Assembly: GCF_009914755.1 (NCBI RefSeq)
Contig: NC_060926.1
Reading direction: 5' to 3' (one strand)
DNA: 64,000 bases
Origin: the human T2T-CHM13v2.0 reference genome, Homo sapiens
Position numbers and translations under genes: made by a program. Below, piece by piece: positions 7,116-36,655 of the stretch. Position 1 is the stretch's first letter, and each line of letters starts with the position of its first letter. The notes below the pieces were generated by a model. It saw nothing but the letters and a program-made list of their open reading frames with translations, had not been told where the DNA came from and made no database searches.

Positions 7116-7520
<405 letters not shown>

Positions 7521-7689: not shown

Positions 7690-7917
7690 CAGGTTGAGTA
7701 TCCCTTATCCAAAATGCTTGAGACCAGAAGTATTTCAGATTTTGAACTTTTTCAGACTTTGGAATATTTGCAGGATACTTAGCAGATAGAGCATCCCAAA
7801 TCTGAAAATCTGAAATCCAAAATTTTCCAATGAGCATTTCTTTGAGCATCATGTCAGTGCTCAAAAAATTTCAGATTTTGGAGCATTTAGGATTTCGGAT
7901 TTTAAATGCTCAACCTG
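7690..7917. mobile_element. Tigger4a/MER46-type DNA transposon MITE
   Basis: TIRs CAGGTTGAGTATCC...ATGCTCAACCTG followed by TA; internal inverted structure. Confidence 0.85.
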
Positions 7918-8743: not shown

Positions 8744-8896
8744 CTTTAGTTTATAAATTGCAGGACTTCCTGGGAAAAGTTTTGCTGCTCTTTCGACCCA
8801 GTATTTTGCTCTTCCATCAGTAACATCATTTTTACAAAGCAATTCTGCAATCTTCAACACAAGATCTTTTTGTGTTGGGTTTAATTCCACTGAACG
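8744..8896 (-). CDS. RGPD8: RGPD coding exon 4 (153 nt)
   Basis: ttag|CGTTCAGTG...CTAAAG|gtaaac; encodes RSVELNPTQKDLVLKIAELLCKNDVTDGRAKYWVERAAKLFPGSPAIYKLK. Confidence 0.93.
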
Positions 8897-9331
8897 CTAA
8901 TATCAGAAAAGAAATTAAAGATTAGTAAATAAATTGTATGTATGTATGTAGGAGTATATATACTTATACATAAAGGTTAAAAATTATCACTCCAACCCTT
9001 AAAAAATTCTACTTCTAGAGAAAACATGTTACTTTAAAGGTGTTAAAATAAAAGTGTCTTGGAATTTTCTAGAAATGAATCAAATAAAAATTATATTTGT
9101 GTCATTTGAATGCAAAAAACACAAAAGAACACCATTTCTGACCGTGTTAGACTTACAATTTATAGGTGTTAAACAATTCTAAATCTGTTCCAAGCTGTGT
9201 CACATAATTGTACTATGATACCAATGCCTGTTTTATGATATTTATAAAATATATTTGACTTACTTATATAAATTTCTCTGGGCATCATGTGTTTGGCTAT
9301 GCAAAGGCTATATTTGAATCCTATAACTTAC

Positions 9332-9443
9332 CCTGTAACATTCAACGGCTTTCTCTGTGTTTTCTTCCAATTCATAAAGAAGACCCAGAAATCTGTGAGC
9401 TTTGGGATCCCTCTCTTGCACATTAATGTAAGTACATATGTAT
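9332..9443 (-). CDS. RGPD8: RGPD coding exon 3 (112 nt, TPR region)
   Basis: aaacag|ATACATATG...TACAGG|gtaagt; encodes YICTYINVQERDPKAHRFLGLLYELEENTEKAVECYR. Confidence 0.92.
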
Positions 9444-10202
9444 CTGTTTTTTAAAAGTAATACAAAAGTAAATTAAACTTAGAACTGTACTTTTAAATGC
9501 TAACCGAAGAATACATCTTAAACCAAAGCAACCACTAAACTCGTTTATATTGTTACTCAAAACTACCACTATTTATGCAGATAACTCAAAAGTATTCATA
9601 GAAAGAAATGGGTAATACTTAAAAACACGTACATAGAGTTGACCACATACTCATTTTACCATTAAATGTCACATTTACCAAATTTTTCTCCAGTGTTAAC
9701 CACACATAAGAAATGAACATATAGATTGCTTTTTCTTCCTGATCACATTTTAATAAAGCACTAACAGTTTTGCCAATAAATTAGAAGTGATTATAATAAA
9801 CATTTTTAAAGTTATCATAATGCAAAATACTAAACAGCAACAATTTCCCAAACAACAAAGGGAAATACATTTACCCTTTAAGCAAGAAAGTAATTTCTAA
9901 CAGTACTATATCCAGCTAAAATCGAACAGAAGAAAAATTACTAATTACAGTACCAAATACAGGAAATTTCCATTTCTCAAATCAAGTAACAACTAAAATA
10001 AGTAAATATCCTCTAGGTTCCTTGACAGTATTACGATCAGAGAAATTAGGCCAGACCTAAACTAAGGGATTAAAGTCTCACAGTAAAAAGGTACAAGAGT
10101 TAACAGTCACAGTGCTGCTAGTTACATAATTTATGTACCACCATTTTCCTTTCTTACCAGCATTTCCATCTTCCTTTGGATGCCTTTAAAAGCCTGCCTC
10201 CC

Positions 10203-10504
10203 AGCTGGGAGCAGTAACACACACCTGTAGTCCCAACACTATGGGAGGCCGAGGCAGGCAGACTGCTGTGCTCAGAAGTTCAAGACTAGCCTGGGCAACA
10301 TAGTGACACCTGTCTCTACCAAAAAATGCAAACCTTAGCCAGGTCCACGTGGTGGTGCGCATCTGTATCCCCAGCTACTTGGGGCGCTGAGGTGGGAAGA
10401 TCGCTTGAGCCCAGAAGGCAGAGGTTACAGTGAGCAAAGATGGAGCCAGCTGCTGCACTCCAGCCGGAGCAAGAGAGACAGATACTGCCTAAAAAAAAAA
10501 AAAA
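10203..10504 (+). mobile_element. AluJ
   Basis: Diverged Alu; TSD AAAAGCCTGCCTCCC. Confidence 0.9.
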
Positions 10505-11023
10505 GCCTGCCTCCCTCTTAATTTCCTGCTTTAATCCACTCCCAGCCAGGAAATCAGAATCACCAAGCTTCTTATCCCTAGGATAGAGCCTTACAGCATC
10601 ACATATTGTGTCAATTAAAGATCTTTTATACAAGCTATTCTCCTGCCTTACAATTACAGTTTAGTTTTTTATTCATTGCTATTTTCCATCTGATTAAGGT
10701 ATCAGATATCTAACCAAAAACAAATTAAGATATAGGCATGGTCCTCTTTTACTCCAACAGAAGACAATTTTTAGAAAAAGTGTTTTAAGCCAAACAATTT
10801 CTTGCCCTTGGTATAAAGCAGCAGCATGCAGAAAACACTAATTGCAGTTTCAATCTCAATGGAATCTAGGCTGGTCCTTAGCATCAGTCTGAGTGATAAA
10901 TCCCTTATTCCAGAATACACTTAGGAAGAACTACTAAGAACATATTTTTACCTATTTCAAAGAAGAAAATGAGAAAAGGCATTGATTTTAAAAAAAAGAA
11001 TACATGTTACGGTTTGTACTTAC

Positions 11024-11091
11024 TTTTTAGCAAGATCATATTCTTTAGCTTCATAATACAGCTTTGCAAAATAGAATCCTTTCATTGACTT
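11024..11091 (-). CDS. RGPD8: RGPD coding exon 2 (68 nt)
   Basis: tttttttag|AAGTCAATG...GCTAAAAA|gtaagt; encodes KSMKGFYFAKLYYEAKEYDLAK(K). Confidence 0.92.
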
Positions 11092-11193
11092 CTAAAAAAA
11101 AATTAAAAGTTGTTTTATGTTTCATACAGAAATATTTTCCAACATTTTTTCAAAAGTAGTTAAAGCCTGACAAATGCATAATTCCATGTTTTA

Positions 11194-11860
<667 letters not shown>

Positions 11861-12261
11861 CATAACATACAAAAAATAAATTCAAGAAAGCAAGACAAGC
11901 AGACAACAGAAGTTAAGAATTTTCATCAGCCTTGGAAATCTCGGAAACCCTGTGGTACCACTCTCTCACTTAACAAACAAAAGAAACCAGCTTTCTTTGG
12001 GGAGGAAAGGTATTCCAGAAATCTCTTCTCCTACCATGTGTAAGCCTCTATGGGAAAGAATAAATAAGTACTTAGGATCTATTAAGGCACTGAGGATTCC
12101 CGGGTCCATGTACTGTTCTCTCTACAGATCAGATCAGTATTTTACAGTCAAGGAGTCAAAAAGGCAGAAATAAATATTGAATTCTTCAAGTAATAAACGA
12201 GGTCCACAGCCTGGATCCTTGGTTACATAAACTCCAAAGTCCAAAATGCTGATGCACACCA

Positions 12262-12559
12262 GGCTGGGTGCGGTGGCTCACACCTGTAATCCCAGCACTT
12301 TCGGAGACTGAGGCGGGTGGATCACTTGAAGCCAAGAGTTCGAGACCAGCCTGGCCAACATACAGAAACCTCCTTTCTACTAAAAATACAAAAATTAGCT
12401 GGGCATGGTGGCACACGCCTGTAATCCCCGCTGCTTGGGAGGCTGAGGCAAAGAATCACTTGAACCCGGGAGGCAGAGGCTGCAGTGGGCCAAGATCGCA
12501 CCACTGAACTCCAACCTGGGCAACAGAATGATTCCATCTCAAAAAAAAAAAAAAAAAAA
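12262..12559 (+). mobile_element. AluS
   Basis: Full Alu with poly-A and TSD-like aaaatgctgat. Confidence 0.95.
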
Positions 12560-12639
12560 TGCTGATACAACCAGAGTATGTTCCATCCATGTGATAGAGT
12601 ATACAGCTACTCAAACATCTTATTTTTGAAATTCCAAGA

Positions 12640-13328
12640 CCCCAGTGAATGTCCAAAACGATGAATAGTACCAAACCAGGTTGCCATCAATCGAAACATG
12701 TTTCCTGTTTGTGTCCTCCACCCACAAATTTAATGTCTTGTCCATCTCAACTAAGCACTTATCACACACTGTGGCTGTAACTTTTGCAGTTTGGGGTGTC
12801 ACAACAAAACTAGCACAAATTTCTTTTTCCTTCTTCACAATTTCATGGACAAAAGATTTGTTCTTACCATAGATCTCAGCAACCCCAGTATATGATCTTT
12901 TTTCTTTCCTAAGTCAAAAACTCACCTCTTCACTTAAAGGAAGCACTATATGGCTTCTCTCTGGCATATGTGAACTGCCAGCATCGCTATTCTTGCTCTT
13001 TGGTGCCATTTTAAATAAAATAAAGGTCACTTGAACACAAGCACTGCAATACTCCAACAACTGATCTGATAACTGAGGTGGCTAGTATGTAACTAGCGGG
13101 TGGGGAGCACATACAGCATGAATATGTTGGACAAAGGGATGATTCGTGTCCTGGGTAGGACGGAGCAGGAGGCCGTGAGATTTTTATCATGTTATTCAGA
13201 CCTGTTTGCAATTTAAAACTCATGAAATGTTTATTTATATAATCTTCCATTCAATATTTTTGGACCACGGGTGACGCAGGTAAGTAAAACCACGTAAGGC
13301 AATACTGTGGATAAGAAGGGACTACTGT
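12640..13328 (-). mobile_element. MER44/Tigger7-type DNA transposon remnant
   Basis: Ends in GGATAAGAAGGGACTACTG-TA (reverse complement of the MER44 TIR); Tigger-like internal sequence. Confidence 0.7.
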
Positions 13329-13559
13329 ACCAGCAACGAACAATCAGAAAATGAAATTAAGAAAGCAATTCCATTTACAATCGCATCTAAAAGAAAAAAA
13401 TGCCTGGGAATAAATGTAAACAAGGAGGTGAGAGACTTGTATGCTTAAATTACAAAACCTTGCTCAATGCCAGGCTAACACCTGCAATCCCAGCACTGGC
13501 GACAGAGCAAGACTCCGTCTCAAAAAAAAAAAGAACTATAGCAATCTTAACAAAAATAA

Positions 13560-13878
<319 letters not shown>

Positions 13879-13924
13879 AGTTCCCCCTTTTCAAAATGAA
13901 GAAATAGATTCAAGGTACAATGCC

Positions 13925-14026
13925 AAAACATAATAGAAAAATAATTCCATTACCTTCTTTGCTTCCAACTATGTTAAAACATAATAGAAAAATAATTCCA
14001 TTACCTTCTTTGCTTCCAACTATGTT
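13925..14026. repeat. Perfect 51-bp tandem duplication
   Basis: AAAACATAATAGAAAAATAATTCCATTACCTTCTTTGCTTCCAACTATGTT x2. Confidence 0.95.
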
Positions 14027-15027
14027 ATTAAAGTAGACAATCTTAAGATAATTAAACAACTTTACAAATTATTCTTCTATATGATCTTTTGCCTCTAACC
14101 TGCTCACTTTACAAGGGAACTGAAGCTCAAGCAGACAAATGCCTTGTTTAAAGATATACAGCTAGAAAGGAGCACAGCCCATGTTATGTAAACAGGACAA
14201 TATCTGATGCAAGCAGTACTTCTTTACATGACAGCAGATGTCACTATAAGCAAATACCTGAATTCACTTAAGCTGCCAAATATCAAGAACTGATGCAGGG
14301 CTGAAAACAGGAACAGTAAGACCCTAAGAGATGCCACATCATCGCTATCTTGCACAGTAAGATAGAGATGTAATTGTAATTGTCCAAAACTTAATATTTG
14401 TGGCCTACTTTTTCATTATGCAGTTCTAAATTTCTCTCTTTTTTTTTTAATTCAAACGGAGTCTCACCCTGTCGCCCATCTTGCACAGTCAAATGAATCT
14501 CCCTCCCCCTAAAATCCTCCAAAAAAGCTGCTGTTCTCAACAAACCCATCTGATCAGCTCCAAATCTGTGGAGTCCCAACAAGGGTGAAGGCCGTGATTA
14601 TACAGGACAATGAGGAAAAGTCTAGATACTGAACCATGAGTTCCCCAATCTTCTTCCCCTGGAACATAAGGGTAAGGAAATCTCTCAAAAGGCAGAACAA
14701 ACAAAAGAGGAGAATAAGAGAAAAATTAGAGAAACTCCAGCTTTCAGGTAAACATCATTAAAAAAAAGGGTAAGAAATGGTCAAAGAAATAATACAAGAA
14801 ATGCTACAGAACTGAAAGAAATGAGTTTCCCAATTGAAAGGACACTTCCAGAAAACCTTTAAGTTACCAAGAACAAGAATCTCATGGGACTCCTAACAAC
14901 AGAACTTCTAGAAAATGGAGCAATGCTTTCAAAATTGCAAAAAAAATTATTTGAAACTCAGAATTCGATAACCAAATGATCAACTAAATTAAGTAAAGAT
15001 GTTTTAAAGACATACCATTAGTTTCTA

Positions 15028-15267
<240 letters not shown>

Positions 15268-15642
15268 TCAAAGCAAGTGAGACTATGCTACACCAAAACA
15301 AAGAAAGTAAATGAAGAGGACATGAGATACAAGAAACAAAGGGTCTAACTCAGAAAAAAGATGAAGGGAATTCTCAAACTGGTGATAAAGGGAAGTCCCA
15401 AGAGCACAGCTGTGTAGCAAAGAGGAAGAAAAACCAATCCGGGTTGGAGAAGTTGGTTAGTAAGGGTATTCCAGGTAGACAGACAATCAATCAATCAATC
15501 AATGTTTTAAGCTGAAATTGATGGGATTATGTGACCAGTTTGACCACATTTGAGGGTTTAAATTGCTGAGTTTAAGTAAGCAAGTAGTAACACAACATAC
15601 AAGCAAACCAAAAAATAAAGCAATTATTCAGTCCAGGAAAAC

Positions 15643-15749
15643 GTGGGTGCAGCACACCAGCATGGCACATGTATACATATGTAACTAACCTGCACAATGT
15701 GCACATGTACCCTAAAACTTAAAGTATAATAAAAAAAACAACAAAAAAC
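15643..15749 (+). mobile_element. Very short young L1PA 3' end
   Basis: GGGTGCAGCACACCAGCATGGCACATGTATACATATGTAACTAACCTGCACAATGTGCACATGTACCCTAAAACTTAAAGTATAATAAAA. Confidence 0.92.
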
Positions 15750-15922
15750 TGCACAACAAGGGCAATTCAAATGCAAAAATATTTACCTTATATTTATATA
15801 AATGTTAACTATTCATTTAAACAAAAACTGCAGTAACAGTACTGAAAGAATGAGGGGCAAACCAAAGTGTCTGAGGACAGTTTTGGAGGAGCATAATAGC
15901 CAGTACAGAATGTCTAAAATGG

Positions 15923-16204
15923 GGCCGGGCGCGGTGGCTCACGCCTGTAATCCCAGCACTTTGGGAGGCTGAGGCGGGCGGATCATGAGGTCAGGAGATT
16001 GAGACTATCCTGGCTAACACGGTGAAACTCCGTCTCTACTAAAAATGCTAAAAAATTAGCCGAGTGTTGTGGCGGGTGCCTGTAGTCCCAGCTACAGGCT
16101 GGGGCAGGAGAATGGCGTGAACCCCGGAGGCAGAGTTTGCAGTGAGCCGAGATCGCGACACTGCACTCCAGCCTGGACGATAGAGCCAGACTCCGTCTCA
16201 AAAA

Positions 16205-16235
<31 letters not shown>
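15923..16235 (+). mobile_element. AluY
   Basis: AluY-like diagnostics (GAATGGCGTGAACCC); TSD aatgtctaaaatggg. Confidence 0.95.
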
Positions 16236-16236
<1 letters not shown>

Positions 16237-16511
16237 TGTCTAAAATGGGAGAAAGGGAATTAAAAATAACAAAAGTATATATGTGTGTTACTCAGAAGTA
16301 TGAAGTATAGATGTAAAGGGCAGAAAAAACAACTAACAGCTGTCAAAGGTGCCTGCCTGTAGTCCTAAGTACTCAGGAAACAGAGGTAGGAGGATCATTT
16401 ACGCCCAAAAATTTGATGAGCAACACAGCAAGACCCTATTCTAAAAAACAAATAAATAAAAATAAGAGCTGTCAAGTAGACTTTGAGAAGTAGGAATCAG
16501 CTGCAGAATAA

Positions 16512-16852
<341 letters not shown>

Positions 16853-17465
16853 TAAGAAGGGCAAAAGCACATGTGAGGGAGTAGAAAAATGGCAAAACAA
16901 GAGAAGACTAACAAATGAAAGCACAATGGAAGACTAGAAAGATATGATATACAGACGCATCATCACACACCAAAACTCCGACATTCTAGAAGGCATGGGC
17001 AGTTCACAGATGGCCAGCCTCTGCCAAACTGGGGGAGAATACTAACCTCTTCATATTCTTCACAGCCACTGCCTCTTCTCCCTCCATTCTTTACCTTCTA
17101 TCCAAAGCACCCTGTTTTGTCATTTCACTCAAACCTAACTTTACAGAATAGCTTCACATGTTCCAGTTACTCACTAGTTAATCCATATTCCGCTGAAATC
17201 CCCAGGTTCTAATGTAAATGACTTTAAATTTGGGGGGGAAAAAAAGACTCTAAGTGTAAGAGAGGTGGTCATAATAACCAATCGTCAAAATGTTGCTACC
17301 ACTCCACTTTATTTAATGGAGAAGTTATGTAGTTGAAAGAACATTCTGACTTCTGTCTAGACCAGTGGTTTTTAATCTTTTGGAAGCCAAGGTCCCCACT
17401 AAGAATCTCAGAAAGGCTCTAAGGTTGCTTTTTTTTTTTTTTAAGCTTGTTTAAAAAAAAAATCA

Positions 17466-18053
17466 GGCTGAGCAGAGTGGCTCACACCTGTAATCTCAGC
17501 ACTTGGGGCCAAGGCGGGAGGATCACTTGAGCCCAGGAGTTGGAGACCAGCCTGGGTAACATGGTAAGACCCCGTCTCTACATTAAAGAAAAAAGCCGGG
17601 CATGGTGGCGCATGCCTGTAGTCTCAGCTACCCAGGAGGCTAAGGTGGGAGGACGGATTGAGCCCAGGACGTCAACGCTGCAGTGAGCCACGATCCCGCC
17701 ACAGCACTCCAGCCTGGGAGACAGAAAGAGACCTTGTCTCAAAAACAAAATAATGGCCGGTGCAGTGGCTCACGCCTATAATCCCAACACTTTGGGAAGT
17801 GGAGGCGGGGAAATCACTTGAGCCCAGGAGTTCAAGAACAGCCTGGGCAACATGGTGAAACCCAGTCTCTACCAAAAATACAAAACAAAACAAAACAGCG
17901 GGTGTGGTGGGTACACCTGTGGTCCCAACTACTCGGGAGACTGAGGTGGGAGGATCGCTTGAGCTGGGGAGGCGGAAGCTGCAGTGAGTCGAGATAGTGC
18001 CACTGCATCCAGCTGGGTGACAGAGTGAGACCCCACCTCAAAAAAAATAAAAT
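17466..18053 (+). mobile_element. Two tandem AluJ elements
   Basis: AluJ diagnostics (TTGAGCCCAGGAG). Confidence 0.9.
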
Positions 18054-18724: not shown

Positions 18725-19667
18725 ATATCCTTTTAACATCAACAATAAAAAGTGACTTGTAGCTAACATTTAGTGCTATGTGTCAAGCAATAACCTAAAT
18801 GTTTAAAATGGATCATCCTATCAAATTCTATCAATGTTACAACTCCATCTATGGATGAAAAGTGTAAGTGGCCCCAAATACCCAGCTTATAAACGACAGT
18901 GCTGTGATTATTCAAGCCAAAGCAAACTGACTCAAGATTCTGCGCACATCCACCTTTAATAGCTTCTTCCGTCACTCTTTAGATCCAATGACTAAAGTCT
19001 TATTGAATCCAAAATAGATCACATTATTTACCTGTAAAGAGGAAAAATACCCTAAAAACACTTGTGGAAAAGGTTAAAAATTGTAAGCCATACTAACGAT
19101 TTGTAAGAACTTTAGAATTTTTTTTTTTTAAGCAAAGGCAGCTACCAAAGTGTTCCGGGCGGGGAGGGGGGCGAGGGAGGTGAGTATGAGGAGTGGAGTG
19201 GAGCTGGACCCTTACAAAGGGACAGCGACAAACACCTCATACTCAAAACAAGGGGACTTTCCGTGTCATTTGTGCCATCGGGCCATTGCAAATGTCCACG
19301 CTGAGATGCCTACCTTGTCACTCGACGCAGCCGCCAAAGCTCACCCGGAGCTGCGTCAGTCCCCACTGGGTTCCTCCAGGCCAAGGAGGTACGACCTCCG
19401 CCGCGGCATATAAAGTAAATGTCCAGGACATGGGAAGAAACCCGCCGATACAGCACCCGGGTGCCCAAGCCCCCGAGAACTAGGCCGCGCGGGTACTACG
19501 GGGCCAGAAAGCCCGGGCCAGGGCGAGCCCACGAGCGAGCACCGTCGGGAACAAACCGGGAGAAAGAGGAAGAGCCGGCGCCAAAGGTCTCCCGCCCGCC
19601 GCGGTCCCCCCAGGACTCTTCCTGCGCTTGCAAGCGCCACGCCGCCCACAGGACTGCGCTAGCCGGC

Positions 19668-19967
19668 CTCCGCCTCAACAGAGCGCGCCAGGGAGCAGCG
19701 CCCTCGGGAGCCATGACCCCTGACCCATCGAGGCCGCCGCCGGGCCGGGTCGAGGCCGCCGCCTCAACAGAGCGCGCCAGGGAGCAGCGCCCGTCGGGAG
19801 CCATGACCCCTGACCCATCGAGGCCGCCGCCGGGCCGGGTGGAGGCCGCCGCCTCAACAGAGCGCGCCAGGGAGCAGCGCCCGTCGGGAGCCATGACCCC
19901 TGACCCATCGAGGCCGCCGCCGGGCCGGGTCGAGGCCGCCGCCGCCCGGCCGGGTCGAGGCCGCCGC
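19668..19967. repeat. GC-rich minisatellite, ~90-bp unit, 3 copies plus a partial copy, at the start of intron 1
   Basis: GCCTCAACAGAGCGCGCCAGGGAGCAGCG... recurs at 19672, 19761 and 19851; TGACCCCTGACCC at 19714, 19804 and 19894. Confidence 0.95.
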
Positions 19968-19987: not shown

Positions 19988-20059
19988 CTGTCGAGGCGAC
20001 GGGGTGAGACCCAGCACCGAGGCGACGTACCGCTCCACATCGGCCTTGCTGCGCCTCAT
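19988..20059 (-). CDS. RGPD8: RANBP2-like/GRIP-domain gene (RGPD5/6/8 group, probably RGPD8), coding exon 1
   Basis: ATG at 20059; 72 nt encode MRRSKADVERYVASVLGLTPSPRQ (RANBP2-type N-terminus with the RGPD5/6/8-type VLGLT); donor CAG|GTGAGT. The paralog assignment is inferred from the upstream vinculin-family exon. Confidence 0.9.
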
Positions 20060-20325
20060 CGCGCCGCCAACCTGGCTCCCGAGACGCGTGCGAGCACCGC
20101 TCAGCCCCGCAGCAGTCGCCACTTCCAAGAGGAAAGTGCCTGCAAGCCACTGAAGCAGCGGCGTAGCCGGCGGAGGCCCACTGTGACGAGCGTGCGGCGC
20201 CGCCCACGGAGGCCCACTGTGACGAACCTGCGTTCTGCCTCAGCACTGTGTATCCTCGGCGACGTCGGCGCTCCAGCTGCACTCGGCCGGGCTGGTGGCG
20301 CCGCCCTGTGGTCTGAGGGTGTCTT

Positions 20326-20610
20326 GACATGATCTTATCTATAGAAAACCTTAATGAAAGCTCAAAAAAAAAAAAAAAAAAGACAAACCATCAGTGATAA
20401 TAAATGAGTTCAAAGAGATTGTACCATACGAGGTCAACTAAAAAAAATGAGATGTCTACTTATACACCAGCAAGGAACAATTCAAGTAAAATTAAGTAAA
20501 CAATTCCATTTATAATATTATCAAAAATAATAAAATAATTATGAATAAATTTAACCCAAAAGTGTAAGACTTGTAGACTGGAAACTACAGAACACTGTTG
20601 AAAGAAAAGC
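20326..20610 (+). mobile_element. Old L1 ORF2 fragment abutting the promoter
   Basis: GACATGATCTTATCTATAGAAAACC...AATAAATTTAACC...GAAACTACAGAACACTGTTGAAAG, typical L1 ORF2 sequence. Confidence 0.8.
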
Positions 20611-22626
20611 AAGTGATTCATCCCCCGGTGCCAAACAGCAGACGCAGGTGTTACCAGTCTGGTGGGGCGCCCGAGCTGGGGACCTGGGGTCCTCTGGGAG
20701 GGGCAAGAAGGCAGCGATGCTGGCCCCCGCCTCCATCTGCCCATCCCATCTGCATCCACACACCGCCCTGCGGTAGCTGCTTGCAGCCCTTCTCTGTCAG
20801 TTTCTCCATTATCTTCTGGTTTGGTGATAAATGAGAGTTCCCATCGGGGGTGCCACCCTCTGTGTGACGGGGAGCAGAGAAGACCCTGCATCTGAGTCCT
20901 TCTGGGGGAAGAGCGAAAATGCTGGGACCAGCCCCAGCTGTCAGGGGGTCTCCAATCCCAGCAGGGAGGCCCCACGCATGGCTAGGATGCCCCAGACCCC
21001 AGGGACTGCACGAAGTGGAAAGGAGGGCCCCCGGTCCTAACTAAGGGTTCAGACCCCCGCAACACACATCCAGGCACACCCCCACCCCCTAGGCCTGGTT
21101 CTAGGTCTGCCAGCTCCGAGAAGGCCCCTAACAATGGTGCAGTCGCAGGGGCTGTGTCCCAGGCCGGGCTCACGCCCAGTCCCGCTGCCCCGGGGGTAGA
21201 TGGGGCCCCTGGCCCGCGCGCTGTGGAGCCCTGGAGTGTCTGTGCGCCCCTTCCTTGGAGGGCAGCCGCTGAGGGGCTGCTGCGGGACTGGGGAGCCTCC
21301 TGGCAGCAAGCGCTCCCAATGCGTAGCGGGACGCTGTGATGGGGACAAGATCCTGGCTTTGAAGAAAGCCCTTTCCACCCTGTCCATGTGGGGGTCTCCC
21401 GGTGCCCCTGAGCCAGCGGCCCCCTCCTGCAGGCTCCGGAGGACTCCCCTGCCTGCATCTGGTCTCGCATTTCCTCCGTGACCTCCAAGCTCCCACTGGG
21501 GGCACACGGCTGCCCTGCTGACCCCAACTCTGGCCCTGTGCCGGTGGTGGGCAGCATCTGGCACGGGGGAGGCGCCGTTTCTTCCACACTCGCGCGTCCT
21601 CAGCCCAGATCATCCGGTGAAGTTTCCCCAGCAAGTGGCTCCCCCTGCCCCCTCCACCCTGCCAAGTGTGGTCCCTGGGCCCCCGCCTTCCCTTCTCGGC
21701 CTCTGCCCCTGGGTCTGGGGCCTGCATCCAGCCATCCACGCTCAGGGAGGCCACCTCCTCCCTCGCTCTCGACCACCACAAAGCTGCCCGGGACCTTGTT
21801 CTATCCTTTCCAAAAGTCCTCAGGACCTGCCTGTCTACGGAGCTCCCAAAACGCCCTGTGAGCTCTCCCGGGCCCCTCCTCTCCTTGCTAATAATGTCCC
21901 ACACGGTGCTGCCTGCCTGGCCCCAAAAGAAAAGGACCCTGGAGTGAGTTCTGAACACAAACTCGATGAAAGTGGCCCCCTGCTCCACCTGCCGAGTCGG
22001 CCCCTCCTCAGACTCTCCCCTTGGGCAGGGAAACCTGCCGGGGCCTGACTGTTTCTTCCTGAAACAGCCTCAGGCTGGAAGGAGAGGGATCCACCCTTGG
22101 CCATTGAAGCATTCAGCAGGAATCAGCCCTCGGGGACCAAGACCCTGTGACCAGCCCCGCCCCACAGGCGCCGGTCCTGGGCAGCCTCCCTTGCTCAGGC
22201 CACGCTGCTCCCAAGAAGCCAGGATGAGCAGCTCGCAATAGGCCCCCCAACACGCAGAGTGCCACGCGGAGGACGGGGGCACCCCAGAAAACTGCAGACA
22301 CTGCATGTCCTCTGGGAGCCCCGGCCCTGGGAGACGATGTGCAGTGGCTCCAGCTCTGACCTCATGAGCCCAAGCTCCGCTACACACTGGGTCCTGACCT
22401 GACCTGGGTCCCTGGGGCTCTCCGGCCAGGCCTCTCCCGGTGCCTCCCGCCCCTGAGGCCGCCACCCAGCATCCAGGCCCCTGTGTAGTCATCCCCTCTT
22501 CAGGAATCTGGGTCATGGCTGCAGGATAGGGGCTACCCAGAGCAGGATGTGGAGGGAGGGGCCGCAAAAGCTGGAGAGAATCTACAAGGCACTATTTAGC
22601 CACCTGCCCTTGATTCTAATTCTCAG

Positions 22627-23068
22627 TGACGAGATTCTTTGCTTGGCCAAACTCTATCAGGCCCTTGAACCTTCTAGGCCACCTGCACACTTCCTTGCAA
22701 AATCCGGTTTTAGCAAGAACACTGCTAAGTGACTTCAGCCAGAACTGCCCCGCCCCGTATCTGATCATCCTCGTCAGGGCAGCCTGCTCGTCCTCGGGCA
22801 CCCAGGTGATGACGAATGACCCTGCCTCCCTTCAGCCAGAACCCCCCACCCCTGCTGTTTGTTCTTAGTGATGTTCCATCCGAGGACCCCACTCTGCTCC
22901 TGGGCTATCAAATCCCACTTGCTGGAGCCATATTCAGAGTGGAGCCTAAATCTCTCTCCACCACTGCAAAATCCCACTGCCCTGGTCCCAGCACCCACCG
23001 CACTGGTCCTGAGTAGTCCGCTTCCAGTCTTTAGCAAACATCATTGAATAAATCTCCTTTCATGTCAG
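22627..23068 (+). mobile_element. MER31-type ERV1 solo LTR
   Basis: Starts TGACGAGATTCTTTGCTTGGCCAAACT...GTTTTAGCAAGAAC; AATAAA near the end. Confidence 0.7.
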
Positions 23069-24929
23069 GCACACCCTTAAATGCAGACACGTGTGTCCTG
23101 GGAGGATTACCAACACTCCCCCGGCCCTGCACATCAGCTGTGGAAGGTGAGATTGGGAAGTGCTGGCCTCCTCGCCAAGGCTTCAGCCTCCATTTCTGCT
23201 TTTCAGGTCATGTTCGAACACTGGGGGTCCCAGGAGACCCACCCAGACCAGGCCCCTCTCAGGGTGGGAAGAGCGTGGAGCAAGAGGAGGAGGCTCGGCC
23301 CAGAACGTTGGCCACAGGCTGACCCGTGCAGGGGGCAAGGGCTTAAGACGGCCCCATCTTCCACTCCAAGTGTGGTCTCAATCTTGTTGGCCAGTTTATG
23401 AAAGTCAAGCCTATTGACTCAGTCAGGGTCTTGGCAGGAAGGAGGCCAGGGCGCAGACAGAGATAGGGATCGCTCCAGGGGTGTGTGGCCCCGGGCTGTG
23501 GGGTAGTCCTGGAGCACCTCCACCCCAGCCTGCAGAACACCCAGGCGGAGCAGGAGCAGAGCTGGGCTGTGTAGGGGTTAGGGGACACGGCCAGCCCGCA
23601 ACCCCAGCTCCCCTCCATCTGCCTCCAGTTTCCAGCCAGGGCCCCCTCTGCCAAACCTGGCCCAAGGCAGGGGCCAGGGCTCTGTCTACTGGGGCCACAG
23701 GGAGGGTGGGGAGGGGGCCGGAGCTTCCAGGGCAAGGGAAGGGGCCACCCCCACCCCGTCACGCGCATAGAGGAGGAGGAGGAGCCCACACTGCCCCAGT
23801 GTCCACCCCACGCCTACACCAGCCCCACATGAGCTCGGGGGTCTCTGGGGGTCAGTGTCTGTAGCTACAGATGTGAGCATGCATGCGGGTGTGCAGGACC
23901 TTTGACCGCAGCCTCCCATGCACCCCTGGAAAGGTGCCTTGCCTCTCTCCCTCACTCGCCATGTGCAGGGCAGTGGGCGAGTCCCAGCCAGCATGGGCAC
24001 CCCGCATTTCTCTGCTTCTGCAGCCCCGACTGACCAAGGCCCCCCAAGTGGGCTCCAGCCCTCCAGGCACCTCCCCGTGCCGTGGTGCCCGCCACAGGGC
24101 CTGGTCTCAGGGCTCCTCCAGGACTGGCCAAGTCCCCAGGCTCCTCCCCCGCCCACGGGGGGCGAGGTGCACAGCACTGACGGGCCCCTGGGCCACTCAT
24201 CTGAACTCTTGAGTCCTCCTAGAGCGGTGATCCCAGCCGGGCAGTTAGCTTGAGCAAGCCGAGTACTTACAGAACGTCACCAAACACAAGGTCCCAGCCC
24301 ACATTCCATGACCTCAGCACTGCTGACGACGTCCTCCTGAGTCCATGAACTTCTTGACGGTTCTCATGGCCTCCTCTGGGAAGTCAGGCAGGGTTCTATG
24401 CAGGAGCCGACCCTCACAGGGCTACCACAGGCCTGTGCGGACCCCAAGAGCCAGGAAGCCGCCTGCCGATGGTCCCTCTTAGGGACTGGATCGCGGGCAG
24501 CTCAGACGGCACAGAGTGCTTTCCTCCTTTGGAAATTAAAGACAGCACATGCTCATTTATCTCACACTCTTTTGTAAGAATTACAAATTAACTCGTATTA
24601 ATACTAAGAGTATTAATTATCGCTAATTAGAAATAAGCTGAGAAAGATAAAGTACTATACAAATGTTGGCCGCTGAATGGCTACAGGGACACATGAAGTC
24701 AAAACAGTATCAGGTCTTTCTATGTCTGCGGCAGAATGCCAAAGCCCTGACACACACCCTTTTAGCAGCTTTAAGTCACTTCTGCAAGTGAGTACTAGGA
24801 GATCGTCCCTTACTCCTGATCTCTGCTCTCAGGGGGCCACTTCAGCATAAGCCTTCCACCCTCCACAGATAACCTCAGGTTCTCCTCAAGCCTCTAGATC
24901 TTATTTGACATTTTATTACAGGTAGCAAC

Positions 24930-25197
24930 TTCTCGTGGCCTGTTCTTCCTCTTCAAAGCACATTACTCTGACCTCTGTTTCCATCCTCACATTCCTTTCT
25001 CCTCTTTCTGATCCTCCTACATCCCTCTTATAAGGACGATTGTGACTCCCTCGGGCCCCCAGATCATCCAGGATCATCTCCCATCTAAAGGTTCTTAACC
25101 ATATTTGCAAAGTCCGTTTGCCATGTAAGTAACATATTCACAGGTTTTGGGGATTAGGATCTGGACATATTTGGGGGCCATTATTCAGCCCACCACA
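24930..25197 (-). mobile_element. MLT1 (MaLR) LTR fragment
   Basis: ...GGGATTAGGATCTGGACATATTTGGGGGCCATTATTCAGCCCACCACA terminus. Confidence 0.8.
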
Positions 25198-25199
25198 TG

Positions 25200-26420
25200 T
25201 CCTTCTTACACGCCTCCATCCTTTCTTTTCCTTCTGGTGCTACAAGATGTTCCAGCCTTATTTTGTGTATTCCTGGCTCCAGACCTAGAATTTCTCAGGC
25301 GTTTCTCCAGAAATACTGGGGTGTCACTGCTTCTAGGGCTTCTCAGAAGACAGAGCGAAAAAATATAGCTAAACACAGATTAGTGTATTATACATGTGTA
25401 TACATAGACACGCACACATTCATACTGATACCTCCCACTCTACTCCACAGGGCTTATTCTAACTTCCCCCCTTGCTTATTTGTAACTTTTTTCTCTGAGA
25501 GTGAGACTCCGACTTTCATTATCTACAACATATTTATGTATTTATTATACTTGTAGTTTCAAAATTACTGAGAAACAAATTTACTACCTAGAATACTGTG
25601 TTAATATACAATTTTCTTTAGTTTTACAGTATCCAGTCAAAAGGCTGTCTTCCAAAGTTGCTTAGGTCAGCTCCTTCTCCATGCAACTCTTTCAGTGAGG
25701 CTGTATCATGCGTTTGTAATATTGTTAGATTCATTTGTTATAGCCTGCTTTCTCCACAGGACTTCCTAACAGCCTATTTCTTTTCTTTTTTTTTTTTTTT
25801 TGAGATGGAGTCTTGCTCTGTCACCAGGCTGGAGTGCAATGGCACTATCTTGGCTCACTTGCAGCCTCCGCCTCCTGGGTTCAAGCGATTCTCCTGCCTC
25901 AGCCTCCGGAGTAGCTGGGACTACAGGCGCCCGCCACCACGCCCAGCTAATTTTTGTATTTTTAGTAGAGATGGGGTTTCACCATGCTGGCCAGGCTGGT
26001 CTTGAACTCCCGACCTCAGGCGATCCACCTGCCTCCGCCTCCCAAAATGCTGAGTTTACAGGCATGAGCCACCCGTCCGGCCAGCCTGGTTCATTTTTCA
26101 AATTTGCGTGCACTAAAGTCCACTCTTTGTGGTGTACAGATCCATGTGTAGTTGTGTGTTTCTGGGCTTTTTATTCTGTTCCAGTGGTCAATCTGTCTCT
26201 TCATATGACAGTATCACACACTTTCCTAAAAGAGGATCTAGAAGTGTTTTTAATACCTGACAAGCTATTCTCTCGCTCTCCATAGCTTTTTATTCCAGGG
26301 TTCTCCTAGTTGTTCTTATGTTTAATTTTTTTCATATGGACTTTGGTATCAACTTTTCAAACTCCATTTAAAAAAGAAAGCTTGTGGAATTTTTATAGGA
26401 TTGCACTAAATTGATGGTGT
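25200..26420 (-). mobile_element. Old antisense L1 fragments interrupted by an Alu (25778-26082, minus strand)
   Basis: Degenerate L1M-like sequence and a full antisense Alu. Confidence 0.7.
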
Positions 26421-27002
26421 TGCTAAGATTCAAACATAGGCAGTTTGCTCCAACACCTACATGAAGTTTTGGGCGAAAAAGAAAAAAGTAACATTTTTGT
26501 AGTGGTATTCAGTTTTTATTAATAGAGTTCGGTTTTGTTGTTATAACTAGGCTACTTTGTATTAACCCTGGAATTGAAACTTATTATGAAAATAATTTGC
26601 ATGTAGGTTTACTAATAAAGAATCAGGCTCAAATGCACTAAAAGACAGACATGAAAATTGTGTTTAGACTACTCTGAAAATTCTTATCCCTATAATAGAA
26701 AATAATTCATCTGTGAAATGAAATAATAATCTAGAAACCCTCTGATGGCACGTAGAACTTGTTCTCAGTGGAAAACTCAGTCAACTAATTCTCAAATGTT
26801 TGCATACTTAAATTATACCCCAAGTAATAAATAACAACTTATTAAATAAATTTGCTTTGTGTCTTTGTGTCTTATTAATTTTTTTCTCATCTGACTTCTT
26901 TCCAAAAGCACTTAAAAAGATTATAATAAGTCTCTAGTTACACTTTCCTTCTTCTGCAAATTTGTCAGAGTGAAAATTTATTGTGTTCTTTGAAAGAATT
27001 AC

Positions 27003-27218
27003 CTTTTGACCGCTTGCACGAAGTCTTCACAAGCTTTCGCCAATTCCTCAGCCATCTTCTCCAACGAGGCAAATACTTCATTCTCCACTTCTTTCCTCTC
27101 CATTGAGATGAGCAGATGGCAAAGCTGAACGATCATTGGTGAGATGATTCTCTCAATGCCTTTGTTCTGTATCACAGAGCTGATGTCATCCAAGAGGAAA
27201 GACTCCATCTCTCTTAGT
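27003..27218 (-). pseudogene. VINAC1P: Isolated first coding exon of a vinculin/alpha-catenin family gene (probably VINAC1P)
   Basis: Acceptor ttctgttcacag|, ATG at 27208 in GAGATGG context, donor AAG|gtaatt. The peptide MESFLLDDISSVIQNKGIERIISPMIVQLCHLLISMERKEVENEVFASLEKMAEELAKACEDFVQAVK aligns by eye to the vinculin N-terminus ([30 protein letters not shown]...). The gene name comes from recalled synteny and is not verified. Confidence 0.75.
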
Positions 27219-27514
27219 CTGTGAACAGAAGTTACAACACAGTTTAACTCACACTGACTGACATGTAAACCTACTTCTCTTTGACTTGATGTTCATCTAA
27301 TTTTACTTCTATCATGAGAAAGAAATCTGCAAAATATCAAAGGGATAAGTTGGGGGAGATATTTTTAGGACCTCACAAGTATGGGATAGGTTGTGGCTTA
27401 GCAGAAACATTAAAAAATGGGACAAAGGCACAATGAGATAGATTCAGAGGTTCAAACAATGGCGAATGGACTCACAAACTATATGAAATAGAGGCAGTTT
27501 AAGAAATGGTTAAT

Positions 27515-31910
<4,396 letters not shown>

Positions 31911-33109
31911 AAGGATTTTGAAGCAGATGTCATGAACATACTTCAACAAGTAATTGAACACACTTAAATTTTGAAAATTACAATTCAAGAAAAAAAAGAC
32001 ATAGAAGGAAAAAATTTGAAATTTTAGAACTGAAAATATAATTAAAATAAATTCATTGAATGGGCTCAATAGCAGAATGGAGATGACAGAGGAAAGTCAA
32101 TTAATTTGAAGATAGATTATTACAAGTTTCTCAAACTGAACGACAAAAAGAAAATAGCTGGAAAAGAAATGAACAGAGATCCAGGAACTTGTGGGACAAT
32201 AAGAAAATAGCTAACATTTTCAAGGGCTAAAATAAAAGAACTGTTCATCCTAATTCTATACCCAGCGAACTATACTGCAGGAATGAAGGGGAAATAAAAA
32301 CATTTCTTGTCAAAATATAAACAAAAGTTACCCAGAAGAAACACAAAGCCTGAATGAATTATTAGCTATAGAGAGAGTGAAATAATAAAGGCCTATATTT
32401 TAAAAGGTCATAGATCCAGAAGATTTTAATCCCTGAATTCTTTCTGGCCTTTAAAGAAGGAACAATTCTTACAATGTCTAAACAATTTCAGTACTTGGAA
32501 AAAGTGCAAAGCTTCATTGTTTATCTTATAAGGCTAACATTGCTTTAATTTTTAAAACTAGTAAGAAATATCAAAAAATTAGAGTATATACCATTTTTAT
32601 AAAGGGATACAGACACAAAAATTATAATCAAATTATTAGAATATGAAATCCAATGATATGGAAAAAGAATAGTACTCCTTAACTAATCAGGGTTTGAGGA
32701 ATGAGAGGGTGCTTCAACATTACAAACTCAACTGACCAGGATTCCTTGGACAAATGGCTGATTCAAGGACTGCAGCAGGAATAGAGAAGGTAAGCACAGA
32801 ATCTCTTGAAATGACAGGAAATAAAGAAGTGCTCCCAAACAAAACCAAACGCACTTTGATGGAGGTTTGTCAAAGGCACACAGGAGCAAGTGAAAGAACT
32901 TCCAGTGGCCAAAGGAGGCATGATTGGAGCAACACCATAAAGTAACACTGGATTCTAACCCAAAGTATGAAATAAGTATCTATGAACAATGATTGAGAAA
33001 ATAAATAAATAGGGGAGACAAACCTCCCATGCAGAGGAATTCTAAATGATTGATGTCGATATTTCACCCTCAAACAGTGGAGAGCATAACTCTCCCATCC
33101 TTAAGTGTG

Positions 33110-33318
33110 GGCTGGAAAGGGATCGGGATCCCGATCCACACCCTAAGAGAGGATTCTTGAATCTTGCACAAGAAAGAATTCAGGATGAATCTGCAGTGCA
33201 AAGCAAAAGCAAGTTTATTAAAGAAAGTAAAGTAGTGAAAGCACAGCTACTCCACAGACAGAGCAGGGCGTTCCTGAAAGCAAAAGGAGGAACGCTTCCA
33301 CCGTAGATACAATGTTGG

Positions 33319-33357
<39 letters not shown>

Positions 33358-33977
33358 TAAATACATACATATATGTATATATGAGCTAAATACATACATA
33401 TATGTATATATGAGCTAAATACATACATATATGTATATATGAGATAAATACATACATATATGTATATATGAGATAAATACATACATATATGTATATATGA
33501 GATACATACATATATGTATATATGAGATACATACATATATGTATATGAGATAAATACATACATATATGTATATATGAGATAAATACATACATATATGTAT
33601 ATATGAGATAAATACATACATATGTGTATATATATACACACACATATGTATATATATATGATAAAAAAAGATATTGGGGAGATGTGCTCTGCTACAGGGG
33701 TTTGTGATAAAGCATTAATTGTCCTAATTACTGTATTTTGCAAGAATCGATATGTTTAAAGCAAAATTAGGAATGCCCTTGTTCTCCAGATATTGGGATA
33801 TCTGGACACTCCCGAGTCTGCATCTGTTTAGTAAACATTATTAATCTGTTCCCTTAACCATAAACATCTAGGGGCTAGGAATTCCTCACTTTCTGGGAAT
33901 GCAGCCCAGGAAGCCTCAGACACATTTTCCTAGCCCTCACTCAAAATGGAGTCACTCCAGTTCAAACACCTCTGACA
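33110..33977 (-). mobile_element. MER41-family (C/D-like) solo LTR interrupted by a tandem repeat
   Basis: Reverse complement begins TGTCAGAGGTGTTTGAACTGGAGTGACTCCATTTTG. Confidence 0.8.
33321..33660. repeat. (CA)n plus an AT-rich ~29-bp minisatellite
   Basis: GATAAATACATACATATATGTATATATGA, about 9-10 copies. Confidence 0.95.
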
Positions 33978-34715
33978 TAAGGACTTCCTTCCAAAGAGTA
34001 CAGTAAGGAAAGGGAAAGAAAGAGGGACTTTTCTGTGGAGAAACGTAATGGACACCGTCTCAGCCAGGTGATCAAGGTCAGCATCAACAGGAATAAATCT
34101 CACCAGTATCCCCAAAACTGTCAAGGTCATCAGAAACAAGAAAAGTCTTAGAAACTGTCACAGCCAAGCGGAGCGTAAGGACACATGACAACTAAATGTA
34201 ATGTGGTGTCCTGGATGAGATCCTCGAACAGAAAATAATATTAGGCAAAAACTAAGGAGATCTGGATAAAATATTCACACTAGCTAATAATAACAAATCA
34301 ATATTAGTTGAGTAATTGTTGCAAATACACCATACTCATGTAAGATGTTGGTTATAGGAGACAATTGAGTACAGGGCATATAGGTGCTCTTTGTACGAAT
34401 TTCTTAATTTTTCTGTAAGTACAAAACTGTCCAAAAAGTTAAGACTATTTTAAAAAAATATTCAACTATCACAATATATTAAATCAACAATTTAAACTAG
34501 GATAATACAATTAAGTCAATAAATACTAAAAAGCTTGTTTCTGATCTTTTTTCAAAGTTTCCAAGTAAAATGATTAAATATGATTCGTCATCAAGAGAAA
34601 GCTTTATACTAAACAGTAAAACACAGAGCCAATTTTATCCATCAGTTTCAAGCTGGAAATATCAGCTGGCACCATTATTAAACATATTTTTTCAAAATTC
34701 TACTGAATATAATTA

Positions 34716-35449
<734 letters not shown>

Positions 35450-36259
35450 TTAAATAGTTGCACATGTTTTCTCTATGAACAGAAATCAGAAATGGAAATG
35501 GAAAACCATGTCATTGAATAGCAACTAAATTCAAAGTGAAATAAAAATAACATCAGGGACATGAGTTTAACTTGAATAAAATTTTGTAGTGGACGTTAAA
35601 ACTAAGTACATTGAGAGACACCGTATCTGAATGGGGAGACTCGCTATCATAGGAATAAAAATCCTCCCAACATTAATAATGTATGGATATTGCTGCAGTT
35701 CTTACACAATATGTTTGAGCTAGCTAAAAGGATTTCAAAAATTACATGGAAAAATAAATGCTTCAGAATCACCAAGACACTAAGTCAAAGAATAATGAGA
35801 GGGAATTGCCTTTATATCCACTATATAGTGGAGAATGCTAAACGCTGCCTGCATTAGTTACCTATTTCTATGTATATACAATCTAATGTTAAAATCTCAG
35901 AGAGACCAAAGGATCACAGTCATATTCAGTCACACAAAGGTCCCTTTAAAGAGATTAAAGGTGTTGCTCTCAGATTGTCTCAAACAATTAAACCTCTAGG
36001 GAGCTTAAGAGTATTTTTCCTCAGCCTCTCAGCAGAAGCTCAAGATAGTGAAGGGTTTATCCAGAGAGATTTGTAGGGTTTCGTCTAATGTAGTTAACAC
36101 ATTATGCAAGCAAACAAAAAGACCCACAAATTTCCTGAGAAATCTGTGTGTCAGTTTGGAGTGGAAAAGGCAGACCCAGTACAACATAAAAAGGAATTGT
36201 TGGACCTCCAAAATTCTAGCAGGAAGCAGGCTGAGAAAACAGATGCTACCTTTTCTTTA

Positions 36260-36655
<396 letters not shown>

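What the first reader, a model, noticed from the sequence alone, without database searches (positions are those of the whole stretch)
27003..27218. Orphaned but intact vinculin/alpha-catenin-family exon upstream of RGPD, phase-compatible with RGPD exon 3 (possible chimeric gene)
Seen in sequence: a clean minus-strand exon with a pyrimidine-rich acceptor, a good Kozak ATG, 68 open codons and an AAG|GTAATT donor, ~7 kb upstream of RGPD exon 1 on the same strand. No further vinculin-like exons are visible between them. Established knowledge: the peptide matches the first helical bundle of the vinculin/alpha-catenin head (IE-I--P---Q--HL-I--E--EV). Arithmetic: the coding length is 206 nt (phase 2). 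RGPD exon 3 (after 140 nt) and exon 7 (after 782 nt) both have phase-2 acceptors. Splicing 27003 to 9443 gives ...AVK-R-YICTYINVQ in frame, which would replace the RGPD N-terminus with a vinculin-head segment; joining to exon 2 is out of frame. Inference: the RGPD duplicon landed inside or replaced the body of an ancestral vinculin-family gene, leaving its promoter and first exon positioned to drive a fusion transcript.
Basis: partly seen in the sequence, partly recalled or inferred. Interest (0 to 1): 0.8.

Follow-up and report, generated by a model that had tools for sequence, protein, structure and literature searches.

The report
Leftover first exon of dead VINAC1 gene
This is the only surviving piece of a vinculin-like gene (the annotated pseudogene VINAC1P) whose body was lost to duplicated DNA that brought in RGPD8, and nothing shows it is fused to RGPD8.

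Summary
The exon is real. On the minus strand it has acceptor cag|, a Kozak ATG at 27208, 68 open codons plus 2 nt, and donor AAG|GTAATT at 27003/27002. It is 97% identical to the first 69 residues of a 1446-aa siamang vinculin-family protein. It lies within the span the annotation already gives to the pseudogene VINAC1P.

No other part of the gene was found in the human genome. The exon occurs three times on chr2, inside a 12-kb duplicated segment.

The body was replaced by a mosaic. After 2.07 kb of intron 1 comes a 418-bp stub copied from 124 kb upstream of RANBP2. A 3.9-kb chr21-derived piece follows, then the RGPD8 promoter.

Exon 2, the first real acceptor, gives a stop after two codons. 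No annotated transcript or protein carries the exon. It diverges at the same rate as its flanks.

Verdict: a relic exon of a known pseudogene; the fusion idea is unsupported and could not be tested with RNA data here.

The parts
27003..27208 (-). First coding exon of VINAC1P: ATG to the last exon base, 206 nt, 68 codons plus 2 nt
   Evidence: 97% identical to siamang P0001 residues 1-69. Pfam Vinculin profile positions 2-55, 15 bits.
27209..27218 (-). 10 nt of 5' UTR in the same exon, preceded by acceptor-like ttctgttcacag (AG at 27220-27219)
   Evidence: Identical in all three human copies.
27001..27002 (-). GT of the donor AAG|GTAATT
   Evidence: The ortholog alignment ends here. The donor is identical in the three copies.
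24938..27002 (-). Remnant of VINAC1 intron 1, about 2.07 kb
   Evidence: Shared at about 98% with copies A and B. Ends where homology to chr2:109056501 begins.
24520..24937 (-). 418-bp stub copied from chr2:109056501-109056917, 124 kb upstream of RANBP2 exon 1 (the name LIMS1 is recalled)
   Evidence: 98.1% identity. The junction is shared by the window copy and copy A. Copies A and B run on into at least 5.5 kb more of this sequence.
20604..24521 (.). GC-rich segment derived from chr21:41812301-41816550; contains the RefSeq 'enhancer' 20840-21818
   Evidence: 96.9% over 3778 bp plus 98% over 153 bp. 4-bp microhomology at the 24520/24521 junction. GC 0.53-0.67.
20252..20607 (-). RANBP2/RGPD-type upstream sequence, including a repeat at 20325-20607; homology to RGPD5 and RGPD6 ends at 20607
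   Evidence: query 614-1308 matches RGPD5 and RGPD6 at 94-95%.
19988..20251 (-). RGPD8 exon 1; a first exon with no acceptor
   Evidence: Gene table supplied with the finding; sequence checked.
11024..11091 (-). RGPD8 exon 2, the first downstream exon with a real acceptor; out of frame with the VINAC1P exon (stop after 2 codons)
9332..9443 (-). RGPD8 exon 3, the only one of 5 tested downstream exons in frame with the VINAC1P exon
24520..36568 (.). 12-kb duplicated segment carrying the exon; two more copies at chr2:110338721-110350499 (+) and chr2:110905145-110916926 (-)
   Evidence: 1.45-1.54% substitutions. Beyond 36568 the window is single-copy.

Best explanation
Bases 27003-27218 (minus strand) hold the surviving first coding exon of VINAC1P. 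This is the human remnant of a roughly 1,440-residue vinculin/alpha-catenin-family gene that is still intact in siamang, Old World monkeys and many other mammals. In the human lineage the gene was broken about 2.07 kb into intron 1, at window position 24937, by duplicated DNA from the RANBP2 neighbourhood. Everything after codon 68 is gone from the genome.

At this locus a later rearrangement cut that duplicated DNA down to 418 bp. It also joined in a 3.9-kb chr21-derived piece followed by the RGPD8 promoter. The exon with 9.3 kb of upstream sequence was itself copied twice more on chr2.

The exon is still open because it is short and the break is recent, not because it is used. Its frame match to RGPD8 exon 3 is a one-in-three coincidence. 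It may be transcribed at a low level as a pseudogene, but it encodes no functional protein.

Shown: the anatomy, the junctions, the copy number and the absence of the rest of the gene. Inferred: the order of events, the window locus being the ancestral one, and the lack of function.
For: - Orthology: 97% identity to residues 1-69 of siamang P0001 (1446 aa) and 91-93% to Old World monkey proteins. The full-length orthologs score 192-198 bits on Pfam Vinculin, cut-off 38.1.
- Rest of the gene absent: the whole-genome search with P0001 finds only residues 1-70, at 3 places (7 of 7 candidates scored). The C-terminal 335 aa give 0 matches (16 of 16 candidates scored). tblastn over window -80000..+64000, both 50-kb paralogous regions and 20 kb of chr21 gives 3 hits at E<=0.05, all exon 1.
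- Junctions: homology to chr2:109056501 starts at 24937 in the window and in copy A. The chr21 segment starts at 24521 with 4-bp microhomology.
- The window copy is probably the source: sequence beyond 36568 is single-copy, while copies A and B are flanked by other duplicated DNA.
- No constraint signal: the window copy differs from copies A and B at 2-3 of 206 exon sites (0.97-1.46%), against 1.3-1.7% in the flanks.
- Frames: 1 of 5 downstream RGPD8 exons is in frame; exon 2 is not.
- Annotation: none of the exons the gene table lists in the window for RGPD8's transcripts lies at 27003-27218. No human or great-ape protein with this exon is among the 33 longer and 17 near-length database hits.
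- RGPD8 itself carries numerous predicted loss-of-function variants in human haplotypes (PMC13639854, passages).
Against: - No RNA data could be examined, so use of the exon is not excluded.
- All three copies keep an intact frame, ATG, acceptor and donor. With only 2-3 differences, the comparison with flank rates has little power.
- VINAC1P appears in a differential-expression gene list from a human cell-line RNA-seq study (PMC12388004, appendix passage), so some transcription is likely.
- Database proteins are clustered at 90% identity. An RGPD isoform with a swapped 68-residue N-terminus could be hidden inside an RGPD cluster.
- The whole-genome protein search used a stricter first filter and may miss matches under about 60 bits.
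- The gene table gives VINAC1P a '+' strand, while the only homology is on '-'. I could not resolve this.
- Synteny of intact VINAC1 with TTL in other mammals is recalled, not tested.
Confidence: 0.82

Rival explanations
1. The VINAC1 promoter and exon 1 act as an alternative 5' end of RGPD8. Splicing 27003 to 9443 makes a chimeric protein in which 68 vinculin-head residues replace the first 47 residues of RGPD8.
For: The exon is on the same strand, 6.75 kb upstream of RGPD8. ATG, frame and donor are intact. The join to exon 3 is in frame. The RGPD family itself arose as a gene fusion, and another member (RGPD1) has a 5'-extended Iso-Seq model (passages of 10.1101/2023.03.07.531415 and PMC13639854).
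Against: - It requires skipping exon 2, whose acceptor follows a run of nine T; joining to exon 2 stops after 2 codons.
- Frame compatibility is expected for about 1 in 3 exons and was seen for 1 of 5.
- None of the exons the gene table lists in the window for RGPD8's transcripts lies here, and no matching protein was found in the database.
- The region upstream of the exon is AT-rich (GC 0.29-0.44), with no CpG island.
- 68 residues are only a fraction of the vinculin family profile (positions 2-55 of 852).
- By inference, the join would cut inside the first TPR repeat of RGPD8.
- The exon diverges at the flank rate, and RGPD8 carries many loss-of-function variants.
Confidence: 0.04
2. The exon is transcribed and has a non-coding or minor role. 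It could be a pseudogene RNA, an upstream start that reads into RGPD8 exon 2 and yields only a 70-residue peptide and a decay-prone RNA, or a modulator of RGPD8 promoter use.
For: VINAC1P has an Ensembl gene id and appears in a human RNA-seq differential-expression list. Splice signals are intact. Exon 2 is the nearest true acceptor.
Against: Reads from three 98%-identical copies cannot be assigned from a gene list. No transcript structure was available. No constraint signal was seen.
Confidence: 0.12
3. The window copy is not the ancestral VINAC1 locus. On this view it is a passenger of a duplication from one of the two chr2:110 Mb copies, so nothing was 'replaced' here.
For: All three copies share the same intron break at 24937. 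The block from window -58148 to 36568 is shared with the RGPD5 region in permuted order.
Against: The window copy runs straight into single-copy sequence at 36568. Copies A and B are bounded on both sides by other duplicated DNA and are 99.56% identical to each other over 45.7 kb, so they are young. The supplied gene table places the VINAC1P name on the window locus.
Confidence: 0.1

Closest known systems
VINAC1 (vinculin/alpha-catenin family member 1) of other mammals, e.g. the siamang 1446-aa and green monkey 1438-aa predicted proteins
   Same: The first 68-69 residues are 91-97% identical. The start codon is the same, and the exon ends where the alignment to the orthologs ends.
   Different: The human genome keeps only this exon. 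Residues 70-1446, including the Pfam Vinculin tail match at 1261-1408, were not found.
VINAC1P, the RefSeq/HGNC pseudogene annotated at window 25919-33175
   Same: The exon lies inside the annotated span, and the name implies the same ancestry.
   Different: The gene table gives no exons and a '+' strand, while the only homology is on '-'. The two other copies on chr2 and the junction structure are not in the table.
RGPD core-duplicon mosaics on chr2 (RANBP2-GCC2 fusion family; Mao et al. preprint 10.1101/2023.03.07.531415)
   Same: Different duplicated pieces are juxtaposed around an RGPD gene, with local restructuring at the insertion site. The preprint describes this in general terms (passages).
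   Different: In the passages read, that preprint does not name VINAC1 or this junction. Here the collateral result is the loss of a resident gene, not a new one.
Fusion genes created by segmental duplication (RGPD itself is the family example)
   Same: A 5' exon from one gene lies upstream of, and on the same strand as, the body of another.
   Different: There is no transcript or protein evidence, the frame fits only if an exon is skipped, and there is no constraint signal.

Membership tests
Vinculin/alpha-catenin family (Pfam PF01044) | Match to the family profile above the gathering score | tested here: not met
   The human exon alone scores 15 bits, E=0.0082, against a cut-off of 38.1. The best PDB vinculin match has E=0.25. 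The fragment is too short to qualify by itself.
Vinculin/alpha-catenin family (Pfam PF01044) | Full-length orthologs of the fragment belong to the family, and the fragment aligns to the proper N-terminal end | tested here: met
   P0001, P0004 and P0013 score 197.5, 191.9 and 193.4 bits. The exon aligns to profile positions 2-55 of 852.
Vinculin/alpha-catenin family (Pfam PF01044) | Head and tail helical-bundle domains encoded at the locus | tested here: not met
   Only residues 1-68 are present. No match to residues 70-1446 in the window, its flanks or the genome.
VINAC1 ortholog (unitary pseudogene) | Close identity to VINAC1 of related primates | tested here: met
   97% to siamang and 91-93% to Old World monkeys.
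VINAC1 ortholog (unitary pseudogene) | Conserved position between ZC3H6 and TTL in species with the intact gene | not testable with these tools
   No primate or mouse genome is held. Indirect support only: the window copy adjoins single-copy DNA on the TTL side.
Segmental duplication | Paralogous copies of at least 1 kb at 90% identity or more | tested here: met
   Window 24520-36568 matches two chr2 loci at 97.4-98.1%. Window 20604-24376 matches chr21 at 96.9%.
Chimeric VINAC1-RGPD8 gene | Same strand and upstream position | tested here: met
   plus the gene table.
Chimeric VINAC1-RGPD8 gene | Open frame across the join to the first available acceptor | tested here: not met
   Exon 2 gives a stop after 2 codons. 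Only exon 3 of exons 2-6 is in frame.
Chimeric VINAC1-RGPD8 gene | Transcript or protein containing the junction | not testable with these tools
   No RNA-seq tool is available. None of the exons the gene table lists in the window for RGPD8's transcripts lies here. No such protein is among the database hits.
Chimeric VINAC1-RGPD8 gene | Selective constraint on the exon after the rearrangement | tested here: inconclusive
   2-3 of 206 sites differ between copies, the same rate as the flanks. There are too few sites, and no ape DNA was available.

The most novel reading that the evidence does not exclude
The VINAC1 promoter and first exon survive because they now serve as an alternative 5' module for neighbouring duplicated genes. 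At this locus the exon would splice to RGPD8 exon 3. In the two paralogous copies it would splice to the LIM-domain exon about 17 kb downstream, whose acceptor is also phase 2 and in frame. The result would be chimeric proteins or regulated transcripts specific to African apes or humans.
Probability: 0.04. Interest if true: 0.55.

Novelty: already known. Interest (0 to 1): 0.17.

Why it matters
The result clears a tempting 'new chimeric gene' call. The exon is a relic of an annotated pseudogene, and its frame match to RGPD8 is no more than chance.

The modest new content is the base-level anatomy. It shows how a resident gene was cut in intron 1 and lost when RANBP2-neighbourhood duplications restructured 2q13. 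It also shows that the orphaned exon was copied twice more. This is a concrete example of gene loss as a by-product of core-duplicon activity.

I found no paper devoted to VINAC1 or its loss: searches for 'VINAC1', 'Gm14025' and 'alpha-catenin family member 1' returned only gene-list mentions or unrelated titles.

Tried and rejected
- The Pfam Vinculin whole-genome scan found VCL, the alpha-catenin genes and a processed pseudogene, but nothing near chr2:110-113 Mb. The exon is too weak for that profile, so the scan says little.
- The genome search with the 219-aa macaque fragment P0002 was swamped by Alu-derived matches to its read-through tail. It added only the same three exon-1 hits.
- The near-length protein search returned 17 short predicted ORFs, 15 of them unnamed, plus one fox and one generic 'hypothetical protein'. 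It gave no human model that would reveal splicing.
- ORF listing of the chr21-derived segment showed overlapping GC-rich frames in all phases and no evident gene. Its source gene was not identified.
- I inspected the ends of the annotated VINAC1P span. 25919 lies inside an Alu and 33175 next to an LTR-like AATAAA. Neither settles the strand or the transcript ends.
- The tandem repeat scan found only the RANBP2-type CpG-island repeats at 19665-19967.
- I considered and rejected intactness of the frame as evidence of function. By inference, about 206 nt at roughly 1-2% neutral change expects only 2-4 substitutions, and most substitutions do not create a stop.

Full report
**Observation**

On the minus strand a pyrimidine-rich tract ends in cag at 27221-27219. 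The exon begins at 27218 and the ATG is at 27208-27206, with G at -3 and +4. The frame stays open for 68 codons plus two bases, to 27003. The next bases are GTAATT. The stop-to-stop frame is 97 aa.

**Identity**

The peptide alone matches Pfam Vinculin only weakly: 15 bits, E=0.0082, cut-off 38.1. It does align to profile positions 2-55, the N-terminal end. PDB vinculin head structures match at E of about 0.25.

The decisive evidence is orthology.
- A search among longer proteins returned 33 mammalian proteins out of 45 candidates, most of them 1,200-1,530 aa.
- The best is a siamang protein of 1446 aa at 97% identity (E=3.1e-31). Old World monkey proteins are 91-93% identical.
- Three of these full-length proteins score 192-198 bits on Pfam Vinculin.
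- None of the 33 is from human or a great ape.

The supplied gene table gives the span 25919-33175 to the pseudogene VINAC1P, so the exon lies inside an annotated pseudogene. The table gives a '+' strand, but the only homology is on '-'. I could not resolve that discrepancy.

**The rest of the gene is gone**

- tblastn of the siamang protein against the window finds only exon 1; the next hit has E=0.37.
- The same search covered window -80000 to +64000, the two paralogous 50-kb regions and 20 kb of chr21. At E<=0.05 it gives three hits, all exon 1.
- A whole-genome search with the protein finds only residues 1-70, at three places on chr2. All 7 candidates were scored, but the tool warned that its first filter was strict.
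- The C-terminal 335 residues find nothing (16 candidates scored).

**Three copies**

The exon lies in a 12-kb segment, window 24520-36568. This segment recurs at chr2:110338721-110350499 (+; copy A) and chr2:110905145-110916926 (-; copy B) at 97.4-98.1% identity. A and B are 99.56% identical over 45.7 kb.

RGPD5 exon 1 maps to about chr2:110.2553 Mb and RGPD6 exon 1 to about chr2:111.000 Mb (the names come from recalled map order). Copies A and B therefore lie downstream of those genes, not upstream.

All three copies keep the frame, ATG, acceptor and donor. The window copy differs from A and B at 3 and 2 of 206 exon sites (1.46% and 0.97%). The flanking kilobases differ by 1.3-1.7%. There is no sign of constraint, though power is low.

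**What replaced the gene** (read along the minus strand)

| Window coordinates | Content |
|---|---|
| beyond 36568 | single-copy sequence on the TTL side |
| 36568-27219 | upstream sequence; AT-rich, repeat-rich, no CpG island |
| 27218-27003 | the exon |
| 27002-24938 | 2.07 kb of intron 1 |
| 24937-24520 | 418 bp, 98% identical to chr2:109056501-109056917 |
| 24521-20604 | GC-rich segment, 96.9% identical to chr21:41812301-41816550 |
| 20607-20252 | a repeat plus RANBP2-type promoter sequence, where RGPD5/6 homology ends |
| 20251 onward | RGPD8 exon 1 |

- The 418-bp stub's source lies 124 kb upstream of RANBP2 exon 1 and is oriented collinearly with RGPD8.
- The chr21-derived segment joins the stub with 4 bp of microhomology.
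- The junction at 24937 is shared by the window copy and copy A (B is about 99.6% identical to A), so the intron was broken once, before the copies separated.
- A and B then continue for at least 5.5 kb of the RANBP2-upstream sequence. They contain a LIM-domain exon (Pfam LIM 41 bits). In the window copy that sequence was cut off by the chr21 piece and RGPD8.
- Non-CpG divergence is 1.25-1.33% between the window copy and A, and 1.33% between the window and chr21. It is only 0.32% between the RGPD8 and RGPD5 gene bodies.
- From this I infer that the 12-kb copying and the chr21 join are of similar age. I also infer that the RGPD bodies have since been homogenised or re-copied.

**Fusion hypothesis**

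The arithmetic is right: the exon joined to RGPD8 exon 3 is in frame. But exon 1 of RGPD8 has no acceptor. The first true acceptor is exon 2, which follows a run of nine T, and joining there gives a stop after two codons. Exons 4, 5 and 6 are also out of frame. One in-frame partner among five is what chance predicts.

- None of the exons the gene table lists in the window for RGPD8's transcripts lies at 27003-27218.
- No human or great-ape protein of 37-2000 aa with this exon appears in the 5.8-billion-protein search. The caveat is that clustering at 90% identity could hide an N-terminal isoform.
- A recent preprint reports that RGPD8 carries numerous predicted loss-of-function variants. It mentions a 5'-extended model only for RGPD1 (PMC13639854, passages).
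- VINAC1P appears in a human RNA-seq differential-expression list (PMC12388004, appendix passage) and in a variant list (PMC11094034, passage). Low-level transcription is therefore plausible, but its structure is unknown.

**Context from the literature**

Mao et al. (10.1101/2023.03.07.531415, passages) report three relevant points.
- RGPD insertions are largely lineage-specific.
- No gibbon or orangutan copy is syntenic with those of African apes.
- RGPD insertions come with local restructuring.

This fits an intact VINAC1 in siamang and a broken one in human. Neither these passages nor the searches turned up any discussion of VINAC1 loss.

**Verdict**

The exon is the relic first coding exon of the known pseudogene VINAC1P. 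It was orphaned when RANBP2-neighbourhood duplications, and later a chr21 piece with RGPD8, replaced the gene body.

The chimeric-gene half has no support. It remains formally untested because no RNA data were available.

Noticed in passing
window 24520-24521: This is an exact junction between the RANBP2-upstream-derived stub and the chr21-derived segment, with 4 bp of microhomology (GGAA).
   Followed up: yes
window 20604-24521: A 3.9-kb GC-rich segment (GC 0.53-0.67), 96.9% identical to chr21:41812301-41816550, lies directly upstream of the RGPD8 promoter. It contains the RefSeq 'enhancer' 20840-21818. It is absent upstream of RGPD5 and RGPD6, so it could give RGPD8 different regulation. Its chr21 source gene or element was not identified.
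   Followed up: partly
L015:4899-5059 (chr2:~110364900, copy A): A LIM-domain exon (Pfam LIM 41 bits) lies about 17 kb downstream of copy A's VINAC1 exon, on the same strand. Its acceptor (..gttacag|C AAC ATG..) is phase 2, so a splice from the VINAC1 exon would be in frame. I recall this exon as LIMS3. No such protein was found in the database searches, and the frame match is again a 1-in-3 chance.
   Followed up: partly
window 1-17501 versus chr2:110256886-110274383: The 5' part of the RGPD8 gene body is 99.24% identical to RGPD5 (non-CpG 0.32%). That is much closer than the adjacent 12-kb VINAC1P segment is to its copies (non-CpG 1.25-1.33%). This suggests later gene conversion or re-duplication of the RGPD bodies.
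   Followed up: partly
window -58148 to -45452 (left of the window): The 3' flank of RGPD8 is shared with the RGPD5 3' flank at 98.3-99.1% identity. In copy A that flank is followed, after about 6 kb, by the segment equivalent to window 36568-24520. This is a circular permutation of the window's order, as expected if the copy spans a tandem-duplication junction.
   Followed up: partly
window 25919-33175: The supplied gene table gives VINAC1P a '+' strand, but the only VINAC1 homology is on the '-' strand. The span's ends fall inside an Alu (25919) and beside an LTR-like AATAAA (33175).
   Followed up: partly
window 19665-19967: A 90-bp unit is repeated 3.1 times at 97% identity in the RGPD8 CpG island, just downstream of exon 1 in intron 1. 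In RGPD3/4-type loci the homologous stretch is expanded many-fold (many staggered hits at chr2:106.927-106.929 and 108.289-108.291 Mb).
   Followed up: no
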